From a virus (Duplodnaviria; Caudoviricetes), in the IMG/VR virus record IMGVR_UViG_3300046819_000361: a stretch of 64,000 bases of DNA. One strand, 5' to 3'. The notes beneath the pieces were generated by a model, which saw nothing but the letters and a program-made list of their open reading frames with translations, was not told where the DNA came from and did no database searches. The translations under genes were made by a program, and so were the position numbers. Position 1 is the first letter of the stretch; each line of letters starts with the position of its first letter. This document shows, one piece after another, positions 8,037 to 39,104 of this stretch.

Positions 8037-9356
8037 CTAAAGTTTTTCACCTGGTGTGAACCCTCTAAAACATTTGAATCTTGGAAACCGTAAGCTATAG
8101 GTACCGTCTCTGTTTTTTGTTATCGCATCTGCACGGATTTCAGCCAGTTCACCAATAATTGTGCTACGGGACTGCCATATATCAAATCGAAGCTGGTCGC
8201 TAAACCCACTGCCAACGTTAACCAAGATTTCTCTGCCATCGTCGATGCCTTTACATACCAGCGCACCTGTGGCTCCTTCATTTTTTCCAGTTCCTTCTTC
8301 GACACCTACAATCTCCAAGGTTACTTCAATAAAAGGTTTTAATTTAAGCCATGCAACTGATCTTTTTAATTCATATGGCGCACTTGGGTCTTTTAACATA
8401 ATCCCCTCAAACCCACCATCAATTGCTTGTTTGTTTATTTCTAAATATCGTTGTTTACCTTCAGTAGTATCCAAATCAACTAATTCTTGGCCAACTACCC
8501 TAACATTCAATAATTTTAAAAATAAACCGTCATTCTCAAACCAGGTTTTTAATTGTTCTGATCTCGTCGATTGTGGTATATTACATACACCTTTTTCAAA
8601 ATCTGCCAATGGCAGCATATCGAAAAAATGAAGTACTGCATCGGATGTTTCCACATTATCTTTACGATACACTTGTTTCATCAAATCTTGAAACGATGAA
8701 CTCATTATTTCGCCATCTAATACCATTGGCTCTGAGAATCGTTTAGCCAATGTAGACAATTGCATTTTAACAGTATCAAAATTATGCAATTCTTTTCCGT
8801 TTCTACTGAACTGATCTACTTTCCCAGATGGATACATGATAGTAATTACCCGAACTCCATCAAGTTTTACTTCAATAAGTTTTTTACCAGTGACTTTTGT
8901 TTCATGATTAGCACTGTCATGTGCTAACTGACAACTGAAAACTGGTATTAAATATTTATTATATTTTTTTACAGCTTTGTTGATTGTTTTATCACTGACA
9001 CCACACCGCAAATCTTTAATTAGAATTCTGCGATACCAATTATTCCACTGTTCTTTAGTGGCGGTATTCATCAGTTCGTTTACTGCATCTCTAGCAGCGT
9101 TGCCAGTGCATGAACGATCAATAAAAGTAGAAACAGTGTTAAAAAAATCATCCCAAGCAAGTCCAGGTCCTGTTTCATCGGATTTCTCCCCAACTTGTTT
9201 AATACCAAATGTAACAGTTGAATCTAACGCAAGTTTGCATCCAGTAAAGAATACATCATTAGATTCAATTGCTTCTTCATTGATAATTGATTCTTTTGCT
9301 AATCGGCTGTTGTCTGCTTCAAGCAAAGACATCACCATCCATGGTTCTCTCATCAT
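8037..9356 (-). CDS. ATP-dependent DNA ligase
   Basis: EVKLDGVR (KxDG), LDGEI, EGIMLK, WLKLK, SLRFPRF. Confidence 0.95.
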   Translation of the reverse strand: MMREPWMVMSLLEADNSRLAKESIINEEAIESNDVFFTGCKLALDSTVTFGIKQVGEKSDETGPGLAWDDFFNTVSTFIDRSCTGNAARDAVNELMNTATKEQWNNWYRRILIKDLRCGVSDKTINKAVKKYNKYLIPVFSCQLAHDSANHETKVTGKKLIEVKLDGVRVITIMYPSGKVDQFSRNGKELHNFDTVKMQLSTLAKRFSEPMVLDGEIMSSSFQDLMKQVYRKDNVETSDAVLHFFDMLPLADFEKGVCNIPQSTRSEQLKTWFENDGLFLKLLNVRVVGQELVDLDTTEGKQRYLEINKQAIDGGFEGIMLKDPSAPYELKRSVAWLKLKPFIEVTLEIVGVEEGTGKNEGATGALVCKGIDDGREILVNVGSGFSDQLRFDIWQSRSTIIGELAEIRADAITKNRDGTYSLRFPRFKCFRGFTPGEKL

Positions 9357-35356: not shown

Positions 35357-35418
35357 CAGGATACGTTTTTACTAGTTGAATTAAAAGTTCAGTGTAAATT
35401 GTTTGCTGAATGTATCCT
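35357..35418 (-). ncRNA. CAGCA-scaffold copy 18, Lys anticodon stem-loop cargo
   Basis: AGGATAC-ATT-CAGCA..TGAA-CTTTTAA-TTCA..GTATCCTG. Confidence 0.85.
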
Positions 35419-35796: not shown

Positions 35797-35870
35797 TGGT
35801 GCTTTAGAAAGGAATCGAACCTCTGTCTGCTCGGTGTAAACGAACGGCCCTACCATTAGACGACTAAAGC
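35797..35870 (-). tRNA. tRNA-Val(TAC)
   Basis: GTTCG-TTTACAC-CGAGC, A73-CCA. Confidence 0.9.
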
Positions 35871-36437: not shown

Positions 36438-36491
36438 CAGGATACGCTTTTTCATTTTTCAAGAATGTTTTTTAATTGCTGCATGTATCCT
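36438..36491 (-). ncRNA. CAGCA-scaffold copy 19, Ser(TGA) anticodon stem-loop cargo
   Basis: AGGATAC-ATG-CAGCA..CATT-CTTGAAA-AATG..GTATCCTG. Confidence 0.82.
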
Positions 36492-37061: not shown

Positions 37062-37113
37062 TGGCGGGGCTATAATTGCTGTTAAAATCCTTGACAGGAT
37101 TTATTTTGGCCCC
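37062..37113 (-). ncRNA. armless CCA-ended mini-tRNA carrying a circularly permuted CAGCA scaffold
   Basis: GGGGCCA..AAATCCT-GTCA-AGGATTT-TAA-CAGCA..TAGCCCC-G-CCA. Confidence 0.65.
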
Positions 37114-37121
37114 ATTATATT

Positions 37122-37197
37122 TGGCGACCCTACCCGGTGACGATCCGGGTTTACTATCGTGAAAGGATAGTGTTCTACCAACGTAAACTATAGGGTC
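37122..37197 (-). tRNA. tRNA-Glu(TTC)
   Basis: CTATC-CTTTCAC-GATAG, G73-CCA; atypical T loop. Confidence 0.85.
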
Positions 37198-38416: not shown

Positions 38417-38826
38417 AATAATTTATAACACTCTCCCACTATGTGTTTAGACGGTTCGTAGCCGAATGAAGAGTGTATATTAAAACATACTCACTTTAAC
38501 TTGTCAAGAACCGTAATTCTTAATGCTGATCTAGTATGTTTTAATATTAAAACACACTGGTGGGTCGTTCAAATCCACTGTCTACATTCCGTAGAAATCA
38601 AATTCTACTATTCTCAATGTGTTTTAATATTTCTAGGTTTTTCCACACACCACACAAGGTGCTTCTCATCCCCTAGACCGCCCTCATTAATAGCTCATTT
38701 TTATAGTGGTGAGCAGAATCGCGTTTTCTAATAGAGACCAATATTTCATTCTCTATACCACTGTACTTCATATTATAATCTGTGTTTCTGTGTCTGTCAA
38801 CTACTTTTTTTAAGGAGTCTAAAACT

Positions 38827-39075: not shown

Positions 39076-39104
39076 ATTATACAATTATTTAGTTTCTTTG
39101 TCAA
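39076..39104 (-). promoter_or_regulatory. sigma70 consensus promoter of the tRNA-array leader
   Basis: TTGACA-N17-TATAAT. Confidence 0.8.

What the first reader, a model, noticed from the sequence alone, without database searches (positions are those of the whole stretch)
37062..37113. Armless CCA-ended mini-tRNA built from a circular permutation of the scaffold
Seen: GGGGCCA / TAGCCCC-G-CCA acceptor with no D or T arm. The internal hairpin is AAATCCT-GTCA-AGGATTT followed by TAA-CAGCA, which is the scaffold with its strands swapped. The hairpin top reads CTGTCAA (Asp-like GTC) and the discriminator is G. Inference: a possibly chargeable or CCA-end decoy version, showing the motif is a portable structural module.
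Basis: partly seen in the sequence, partly recalled or inferred. Interest (0 to 1): 0.7.

Follow-up and report, generated by a model that had tools for sequence, protein, structure and literature searches.

The report
Armless CCA-ended phage handle RNA
A 52-base RNA gene in a giant lake-water phage keeps only a tRNA-like end (short stem plus CCA) and the docking hairpin shared by about 20 neighbouring small RNAs that probably partner the phage's Ro60-like ring protein; it is real and conserved, but it is not a working mini-tRNA.

Summary
On the minus strand, 37113 to 37062, a 5-bp G/C helix ending in G-CCA encloses a 7-bp hairpin followed by UAA-CAGCA-A. That hairpin is the family "handle" (AGGnnnn-3 nt-CAGCA ... 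nnnnCCU-G) with its strands swapped and capped by a G-first tetraloop.

It is the best permuted match in the window. Four distinct versions exist in relatives, with one compensatory pair flip. It is not a junction between two tandem standard units.

The inverted topology is not unique. IMG/VR holds at least 42 distinct, roughly 115-130-nt CCA-ended tRNA-shaped RNAs with the same hairpin handle. The armless form occurs only in this clade. This scan has reported the handle/DUF2828 system in other phage genomes before.

The phage's DUF2828/DUF7788 protein models as a Ro60 ring.

Most likely the element is cut out like a tRNA and docks that protein, presenting only a free acceptor-type end.

Not supported: the Asp anticodon reading (the loop has 4 nt and varies), a 7-bp acceptor stem (only 5 bp are conserved), and charging.

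No data show a discrete RNA; metatranscriptome contigs only show the stretch inside a 1.25-kb piece.

Verdict: a new variant of Y-RNA-like tRNA mimics, of moderate interest.

The parts
37062..37113 (-). The whole mini RNA gene (52 nt): outer helix, linker, hairpin-form handle, CAGCA loop, G-CCA end
   Evidence: conserved in L002, L003/L004, L031, L245; consensus fold
37109..37113 (-). 5' strand of the outer (acceptor-like) helix, GGGGC; preceded by U at -1 in all versions
   Evidence: Invariant in 4 distinct sequences
37096..37102 (-). Handle strand of the 3' type (AAAUCCU)
   Evidence: Pairs with 37085-37091; matches nnnnCCU of the standard copies
37092..37095 (-). Tetraloop GUCA; its first G corresponds to the conserved G after CCU in standard copies
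   Evidence: G kept, the rest varies (GUUG, GUCG) in relatives; GNNA in most tRNA-shaped carriers
37085..37091 (-). Handle strand of the 5' type (AGGAUUU)
   Evidence: loop-proximal pair flips U-A to A-U in L002/L031
37077..37084 (-). 3-nt spacer UAA plus the invariant CAGCA motif
   Evidence: Same spacing as in the standard copies; invariant in relatives
37066..37070 (-). 3' strand of the outer helix, GCCCC
   Evidence: Invariant
37062..37065 (-). Discriminator-like G plus encoded CCA, followed by an A/U-rich trailer like the phage's tRNAs
   Evidence: 23 of 25 tRNA calls encode CCA plus an A/T-rich trailer; invariant in relatives, including L031 where the trailer differs
37122..37197 (-). 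tRNA-Glu(UUC), 8 nt upstream of the mini on the same strand
   Evidence: replaced by a different tRNA-Glu in L002-L004 and by tRNA-Asp in L031
36515..37045 (-). Dual-specificity-phosphatase-like gene; its ATG lies 16 nt after the CCA. Linked to the mini in all five contigs that carry the mini.
   Evidence: Pfam DSPc 1.1e-11
36438..36491 (-). Standard-topology short handle RNA just after the phosphatase gene; its cargo loop equals the anticodon loop of the phage tRNA-Ser(UGA)
20509..21921 (-). DUF2828/DUF7788 gene, the Ro60-like ring protein and presumed partner of the handle
   Evidence: Pfam; model's top 13 PDB matches are all Ro60/TROVE; GenBank homologues are labelled Ro-like RNA binding protein
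38772..38800 (-). Perfect sigma-70-type promoter match upstream on the same strand; a second perfect match lies at 39076-39104
   Evidence: 12 of 12 matches each; consensus match only

Best explanation
The element is a genuine, selected small-RNA gene. It is the smallest, inside-out member of the phage's 'handle' RNA family.

In the standard members the RNA ends lie at the handle stem and a closed cargo sits on the other side. The cargo is an anticodon stem-loop or a YrlA-like tRNA body. Here the handle is closed by a G-first tetraloop, and the RNA ends lie in the cargo. That cargo is reduced to a 5-bp G/C helix with a free G-CCA tail.

A free acceptor-type end can only be offered if the topology is inverted. 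That would explain the circular permutation.

Inferred steps, none shown:
1. The RNA is transcribed within the tRNA array.
2. RNase P cuts before G1. The site has U at -1, G1-C72 and a 3' GCCA.
3. The 3' end is trimmed back to the encoded CCA, as for the neighbouring tRNAs.
4. The hairpin plus CAGCA loop docks the phage's Ro60-like DUF2828/vWA protein.

The particle would then carry only an acceptor-type end. This could serve as a minimal Y-like RNA that occupies or stabilises the protein, or as bait for factors that act on tRNA 3' ends.
For: Sequence and fold:
- All handle features are present in the right geometry.
- It is the top-scoring permuted match in the window, and 0 of 20 shuffles reach its score.
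- No partner strands exist elsewhere, so it is not a junction between two tandem standard units.

Conservation:
- There are 4 distinct versions in relatives whose phosphatase is 79-97% identical. GGGGC, GCCCC-G-CCA, the loop G and GGAUUU-UAA-CAGCA-A are invariant.
- One compensatory flip (U-A to A-U) and one A-U to G.U change occur. All other changes lie in loops and linkers.
- The upstream tRNA is swapped in relatives while the mini is kept.

Wider pattern:
- A generic search for this architecture over 2.45 Mb of related phage DNA finds only these 4 sequences, and none in reversed controls.
- The same hairpin-form handle sits in at least 42 distinct CCA-ended tRNA-shaped RNAs. 13 of the 52 loci that carry them hold a DUF2828 homologue within the fetched piece.
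- The flanks match the phage's tRNA genes.
- The cargo loops of 4 of 6 short standard members equal anticodon loops of the phage's own tRNAs, so the family does display tRNA parts.

Protein partner:
- The DUF2828 protein models as a Ro60 ring.

Published precedent:
- M. smegmatis YrlA is cleaved by RNase P and receives CCA in vivo while bound to Rsr (PMC4201824).
- Phage phiLo Ro60 binds stem-plus-bulge Yrl RNAs (PMC12135203).
Against: - No data show a discrete 52-nt RNA. RNA-library contigs only carry the stretch inside a 1253-nt piece, and DNA carry-over cannot be excluded.
- The outer helix has only 5 conserved pairs and no T arm, which is a weak RNase P substrate.
- Only 4 distinct sequences from one narrow clade are available, so covariation rests on one pair.
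- Binding of any handle RNA to the DUF2828 protein is inferred from co-occurrence and fold only.
- The element always sits 16 nt before the phosphatase start codon, which also fits a cis-acting role.
Confidence: 0.5

Rival explanations
1. It is a cis-acting leader of the phosphatase mRNA. The element stays attached, or acts as tRNA-like punctuation (t-element style) that sets the mRNA 5' end. Its handle brings the Ro60-like protein to that message. The mRNA is bracketed by a second handle RNA 24 nt after the stop codon.
For: - The mini ends 16 nt before the ATG and travels with the phosphatase gene, not with the upstream tRNA.
- A standard handle follows the gene in the window, L002, L004 and L031.
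- More distant phosphatase genes (56% identity) carry other conserved structured RNAs in the same leader slot.
Against: - tRNA-Glu 8 nt upstream already provides a processing site.
- A punctuation signal would not need the full handle.
- The element shows no pairing with the ribosome-binding site.
- A 91%-identical phosphatase gene lives without it behind its own promoter.
Confidence: 0.2
2. It is a decaying remnant of a roughly 120-nt handle-carrying tRNA mimic that lost its D, anticodon-like and T arms and has no function of its own.
For: - Full-size carriers with the same hairpin are common. Some start GGGGCC like the candidate.
- A 97-nt form without the anticodon-like arm exists (L152).
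- The armless form is confined to one clade.
Against: - Two separate deletions would have had to leave a perfectly paired helix, the G-CCA and every handle feature.
- The stem pair flip is compensated, and the changes avoid the motifs.
- The element is kept while neighbouring tRNA genes are exchanged.
Confidence: 0.12
3. It is a chargeable armless mini-tRNA (Asp or other).
For: It has an encoded G-CCA end and G1-C72. Synthetic minihelices can be charged by some synthetases (own knowledge, not tested here).
Against: - The loop has 4 nt, and GUC is not conserved (GUUG, GUCG).
- Only 5 acceptor pairs exist, with no T arm.
- The stem is 12 of 14 identical to the phage tRNA-Ala stem but has G3:C70 and G73 in place of the alanine determinants G3:U70 and A73.
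- ARAGORN and Rfam see no tRNA.
Confidence: 0.03
4. It is a chance hairpin, or a weak terminator in AT-rich intergenic DNA.
For: A U-run follows 5 nt after the helix. The single-sequence z-score is modest at -2.6.
Against: The terminator scan finds nothing here. The match to the family, the conservation and the compensatory change argue against chance.
Confidence: 0.03

Closest known systems
YrlA-type Y RNAs with Ro60/Rsr (Rfam RF02553; Chen et al. [quoted passage not shown]
   Same: A protein-docking stem plus a single-stranded motif is joined to tRNA-derived parts. The partner is a Ro60-fold ring protein. M. smegmatis YrlA ends up with an opened acceptor stem carrying CCA while still bound to Rsr.
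   Different: There is no Rfam match. The motif is CAGCA rather than GNCGAA(N)G. The partner is the DUF2828/DUF7788 branch, not Pfam TROVE. Here the open acceptor end is encoded in one piece, and the docking stem is closed by a loop. There are no D or T arms.
Thermus phage phiLo Ro60 with Yrl1/Yrl2 (PMC12135203; PDB 9KOP, 9L5Y)
   Same: A phage-encoded Ro60-fold protein (a top structural match of the window's protein) partners phage-encoded small RNAs that have a stem flanking a bulge motif.
   Different: phiLo has two RNAs with ends at the stem and a CGAA motif. This phage has about 20 handle RNAs in its tRNA array, plus this inverted, CCA-ended one.
Roughly 115-130-nt handle-carrying tRNA-shaped RNAs of other phages
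   Same: The identical hairpin-form handle (CCU-GNNA-AGG, 3 nt, CAGCA, A) lies inside a CCA-ended RNA in tRNA clusters of phages that carry DUF2828.
   Different: Those keep a 7-bp acceptor stem, a D arm, an anticodon-like hairpin and a T arm. The candidate keeps none of the arms and only 5 acceptor pairs.
t-elements / tRNA-like punctuation and synthetic acceptor minihelices
   Same: A short helix with NCCA and U at -1, placed just before a start codon, could direct RNase P and 3' trimming.
   Different: Those consist of an acceptor stem plus a T arm. This one carries a family-specific protein-docking hairpin instead.
Armless mitochondrial tRNAs of enoplean nematodes
   Same: About 50 nt long, lacking D and T arms, with an acceptor helix.
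   Different: Those keep a 7-nt anticodon loop and decode. This element has a 4-nt variable loop and cannot decode.

Membership tests
tRNA (Rfam RF00005) | Cloverleaf with D, anticodon and T arms recognised by tRNA models | tested here: not met
   ARAGORN makes no call here. Rfam finds no tRNA match even at E up to 10.
tRNA (Rfam RF00005) | 7-bp acceptor stem | tested here: not met
   Pair 6 is C.A in the window. Only 5 pairs are conserved in relatives.
tRNA (Rfam RF00005) | 7-nt anticodon loop with a conserved anticodon | tested here: not met
   The loop has 4 nt and reads GUCA, GUUG or GUCG.
tRNA (Rfam RF00005) | Discriminator plus CCA at the 3' end, with tRNA-like flanks | tested here: met
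   G-CCA is encoded, U is at -1, and an A/U-rich trailer follows as in the phage's own tRNAs.
Phage handle RNA family (DUF2828-associated) | 7-bp stem with GG/CC at positions 2-3, G after CCU, 3-nt spacer, CAGCA, then A | tested here: met
   The A-U/U-A variant of the terminal pair also occurs in a standard copy (L027 3005-3060).
Phage handle RNA family (DUF2828-associated) | Lies in the tRNA array on the tRNA strand of a phage that encodes DUF2828/DUF7788 | tested here: met
Phage handle RNA family (DUF2828-associated) | RNA ends located at the handle stem (standard topology) | tested here: not met
   The strands are swapped and capped by a tetraloop. The same inverted form is common inside tRNA-shaped carriers.
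Phage handle RNA family (DUF2828-associated) | Bound by the DUF2828 protein | not testable with these tools
   Only co-occurrence and the Ro60-like fold of the protein are available.
YrlA / Y RNA (RF02553) | Match to the covariance model; GNCGAA(N)G motif in the Ro60-binding stem | tested here: not met
   No Rfam match. The motif here is CAGCA.
YrlA / Y RNA (RF02553) | Encoded with a Ro60-fold protein | tested here: met
   The model's top 13 PDB matches are all Ro60/TROVE, with E from 2.6e-8 to 2.3e-6. The model has moderate confidence (pLDDT 68.9).
t-element / tRNA punctuation | tRNA-like structure abutting an mRNA end and cut by RNase P or the 3' processing enzymes | not testable with these tools
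   The position fits, 16 nt before the ATG. Cleavage is not shown, because contigs carry no end information.

The most novel reading that the evidence does not exclude
The phage's roughly 20 handle RNAs form a set of tRNA parts tethered to a Ro60-like ring: anticodon loops, elbow bodies and, through this inverted member, a free acceptor/CCA end. The mini would be a bait or adaptor for factors that act on tRNA 3' ends. Examples are host nucleotidyltransferase or nuclease toxins used in abortive infection, or exonucleases. The inverted topology would exist precisely because a free CCA end cannot be shown on a standard handle.
Probability: 0.15. Interest if true: 0.8.

Novelty: new variant of a known kind. 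Interest (0 to 1): 0.5.

Why it matters
The element works as a natural circular-permutation experiment. All handle features survive when the RNA ends are moved away and the stem is capped by a loop. That argues the handle is a self-contained docking module, not a by-product of end processing.

At 52 nt it is the smallest natural candidate ligand for binding and structural work on the very widespread DUF2828 branch of Ro60-like proteins. Homologues occur in 711 GenBank phage records, and thousands of metagenomic proteins match.

If the acceptor-end display reading is right, the handle family would present every functional part of a tRNA.

Tried and rejected
- **Close relatives in GenBank phages by DNA:** only tRNA-level matches.
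- **Whole genome of the window:** not held.
- **IMG/VR scan for the 3' half of the element:** only the three known relatives plus 19 unrelated matches.
- **Metagenome scan with the stem left free:** one further contig, with no new stem variant.
- **More distant phosphatase homologues:** those at 56%, 51% and 91% identity lack the element.
- **Whole-record searches of ten large related IMG/VR records:** no armless copy; two tRNA-shaped carriers only.
- **Two apparent 'permuted' hits that were something else:**
  - L113 5838 is an ordinary tRNA-Ser whose variable arm happens to contain CAGCA.
  - Many pattern hits are junctions between tandem standard units.
- **Own promoter:** a -10-like TATAAT sits in the 8-nt spacer of the window, but it is not conserved in relatives and would start transcription inside the element.
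- **Terminator reading:** no terminator call.
- **Metatranscriptome runs:** available only as contigs, so they give no ends, strand or level. Parts without cover say nothing.
- **Search of solved structures by sequence for the DUF2828 protein:** no match; the fold search was needed.

Full report
**What is there**

The window comes from an uncultured jumbo phage. The exact DUF2828 protein occurs on a 367-kb contig. The phage has 25 tRNA calls, all on the minus strand, plus a permuted tmRNA and a Polynucleobacter-1 RNA.

The finding lies on the minus strand, from 37113 down to 37062. It starts 8 nt after the CCA of tRNA-Glu(UUC). It ends 16 nt before the ATG of a dual-specificity-phosphatase-like gene (Pfam DSPc, 1.1e-11).

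Read 5' to 3', the element consists of:
- GGGGC, then a 6-nt A-rich linker;
- the hairpin AAAUCCU / GUCA / AGGAUUU;
- UAA, CAGCA, and a 6-nt linker;
- GCCCC, G, CCA.

ARAGORN and Rfam see no tRNA or any other family here. The fold is predicted for the sequence alone (-15.2 kcal/mol, z = -2.6) and in context beside the tRNA-Glu cloverleaf.

**Relation to the scaffold**

I re-derived the family. Between 22300 and 36491, 16-20 minus-strand elements have this form: AGGnnnn, 3 nt, CAGCA, an A-rich linker, a variable cargo, nnnnCCU, G.

The candidate's hairpin holds both strands of this handle in swapped order. The conserved 3' G becomes the first loop base. The 3-nt spacer, CAGCA and the following A stay in register.

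With position weight matrices from 16 standard copies, the candidate is the best permuted arrangement on either strand. It scores 14.9 bits against 3.2 for the next hit, and none of 20 Markov shuffles reaches it.

It is not a junction between two tandem standard units, which would look the same locally. No partner strands exist upstream or downstream.

The linker lengths mirror those of the short standard members. The element therefore reads as a short member turned inside out.

**Conservation**

The phosphatase gene led to the relatives:
- three IMG/VR contigs (94-97% protein identity);
- a Logan contig pair at 79% identity;
- one more contig from the metagenome scan.

All carry the element directly before the phosphatase start codon. 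Together with the window they give 4 distinct sequences.

Invariant parts are GGGGC, GCCCC-G-CCA, U at -1, the loop G, and GGAUUU-UAA-CAGCA-A. Changes fall in the loop (GUCA, GUUG, GUCG) and in the two linkers, including a 3-4-nt insertion.

Within the hairpin, the loop-proximal pair flips from U-A to A-U, which is compensatory. The basal pair goes from A-U to G.U. The U-A/A-U alternative also occurs at the same position in a standard handle (L027 3005-3060). All four versions fold alike.

The upstream gene is not conserved. L002-L004 have a quite different tRNA-Glu, and L031 has tRNA-Asp. So the mini travels with the phosphatase gene and with the short standard handle RNA plus tRNA-Phe that follow it.

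Phosphatase homologues at 56%, 51% and 91% identity lack the element.

**Wider context**

Sorting the hits gave two kinds.
- Junctions inside tandem arrays of standard units.
- At least 42 distinct CCA-ended RNAs of about 115-130 nt, in 52 loci. Each has a covarying 7-bp acceptor stem, a canonical D arm, the hairpin handle (CCU-GNNA-AGG, 3 nt, CAGCA, A), an anticodon-like hairpin and a canonical T arm.

No Rfam family matches these RNAs in the three loci tested, and ARAGORN does not call the copy I checked. 13 of the 52 loci hold a DUF2828 homologue within the fetched piece, whose median length is 9 kb.

The inverted handle is therefore a recurring design, and the candidate is its most reduced form. 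A 97-nt intermediate without the anticodon-like arm exists (L152).

A generic structural search used these criteria: any 7-bp hairpin, a G-first loop, 3 nt, CAGCA, enclosed within 30 nt by a G/C-rich 5-bp helix followed by NCCA. Over 2.45 Mb of fetched phage DNA it found only the 4 minis of this clade, and nothing in reversed controls. Ten large related records hold no other armless copy.

This scan has reported the handle/DUF2828 system in other phage genomes before. I found no published description of the handle.

**The tRNA-like end**

23 of the 25 tRNA calls in the window encode CCA followed by an A/U-rich trailer, and most have U at -1. The mini has the same flanks.

Its stem strands are 12 of 14 identical to the phage tRNA-Ala acceptor stem. 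However, G3:C70 replaces G3:U70 and G73 replaces A73. It is established knowledge that G3:U70 is the main alanine determinant, so AlaRS should not charge this RNA.

Only 5 pairs are conserved and there is no T arm. From general knowledge of RNase P model substrates, a helix with U(-1), G1-C72 and a 3' RCCA can be cleaved. A 5-bp helix would be a weak substrate. Processing is therefore inferred, not shown.

**Family theme**

The cargo loops of 4 of the 6 shortest standard members are identical to the 7-nt anticodon loops of the phage's own tRNAs for Ser(UGA), Lys, Ile and Cys. Longer members carry a T arm, a capped acceptor stem and a D arm in YrlA-like order.

In that light the mini presents the one tRNA part that needs free ends, and this gives a reason for the permutation.

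**The partner protein**

The 470-aa gene at 20509-21921 matches Pfam DUF7788 (1.1e-48) and DUF2828 (2e-20). It has thousands of close homologues. It also has homologues in 711 GenBank phage records, some annotated as Ro-like RNA binding protein.

An AlphaFold model from a shallow alignment has moderate confidence (pLDDT 68.9, pTM 0.66). Its 13 best PDB matches are all Ro60/TROVE structures, aligned over about 500 columns. They include Thermus phage phiLo Ro60, Xenopus Ro and D. radiodurans Rsr (E from 2.6e-8 to 2.3e-6).

Published work provides two precedents:
- phiLo Ro60 binds phage Yrl RNAs built from a terminal stem plus a bulge motif, and recruits host PNPase (PMC12135203).
- M. smegmatis YrlA is cut by RNase P and gains CCA in vivo while bound to Rsr (PMC4201824).

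**Expression**

Two perfect sigma-70-type promoter matches lie upstream on the same strand, and there is no terminator call near the element.

Three metatranscriptomic runs of one freshwater sample hold the region. A 1253-nt contig spans the phosphatase 5' end, the element (in its L002-type variant), tRNA-Glu and the upstream ORF. This shows presence in an RNA library as part of a long piece. It gives no ends, and DNA carry-over cannot be excluded.

**Verdict**

The reading 'portable module, circularly permuted, CCA-ended, armless' is supported. 'Asp-like' and 'chargeable' are not.

The best explanation is a tRNA-style processed, minimal, inverted-topology partner RNA of the Ro60-like protein. 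The main rivals are a cis-acting or punctuation role for the phosphatase message, and a decayed remnant of a full-size carrier.

It is a new variant of a known kind (Y-RNA-like tRNA mimics). It is confined to a narrow clade, and it is useful mainly as a minimal ligand and as a natural test of what the handle needs.

Noticed in passing
IMG/VR loci L128, L129, L149, L151, L162, L173, L181, L214 and about 35 more (for example L214 minus strand, RNA at about 9201-9323): A widespread class of roughly 115-130-nt CCA-ended tRNA-shaped RNAs. They carry the hairpin-form handle between the D arm and an anticodon-like hairpin, and their acceptor stems covary. No Rfam family matches them in the three loci tested, and ARAGORN did not call the copy checked. 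Several have GGGGCCU.../...GGCUCC-A-CCA, that is G3:U70 plus A73, the alanine determinants.
   Followed up: partly
L152 3868-3964 (+): A 97-nt intermediate: acceptor stem, D-like arm, hairpin handle, T arm and G-CCA, but no anticodon-like arm.
   Followed up: no
L027 9704-9782 and L040 about 166-244: In phages whose phosphatase is 56% identical, the slot upstream of the gene holds a conserved CCA-ended tRNA-like RNA. It has G3:U70 and A73, a 5-nt 'anticodon' loop (NAACU) and a covarying T-like arm. ARAGORN did not call the L027 copy, and Rfam found no match for it.
   Followed up: partly
L027 9850-9995 and L040 about 285-400: A second conserved structured RNA, about 120-140 nt, lies in the phosphatase leader. 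In L027 its closing stem pairs AUCCUG with the ribosome-binding site UAGGAU. It contains GACGAACG, which fits the published YrlA motif GNCGAA(N)G. Rfam gives no match.
   Followed up: partly
L131, L133, L136, L139, L170 (contigs named GVMAG) and L196 7380-7720: Tandem arrays of standard handle units with periods of 64-76 nt, separated only by UAU. Some lie on contigs labelled as giant-virus metagenome assemblies.
   Followed up: no
window 35830-35849 (inside tRNA-Val, 35797-35870, minus strand): RNA-library contigs of three runs replace 18 nt in the middle of the tRNA-Val gene with 877 other letters. This may be an intron or a homing element in a related strain.
   Followed up: no
window 37114-37197 versus L002-L004 and L245: The tRNA-Glu upstream of the mini is a quite different sequence in close relatives. 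L245 combines the L003-type tRNA-Glu with the L002-type mini. This suggests recombination within the 8-nt spacer.
   Followed up: partly
window 36438-36491, 35357-35418, 27199-27261, 23722-23773 (minus strand): Short standard handle RNAs whose cargo hairpin loops are identical to the anticodon loops of the phage's own tRNA-Ser(UGA), Lys, Ile and Cys. The stems differ.
   Followed up: yes
window 39076-39104 and 38772-38800 (minus strand): Two perfect TTGACA-17-TATAAT promoter matches at the head of this part of the tRNA array.
   Followed up: no
L037 1100-1424: A 91%-identical phosphatase gene with a 22-codon N-terminal extension sits in a different context, behind its own promoter-like sites and a terminator-like hairpin. 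It has no tRNAs and no handle RNA nearby.
   Followed up: no
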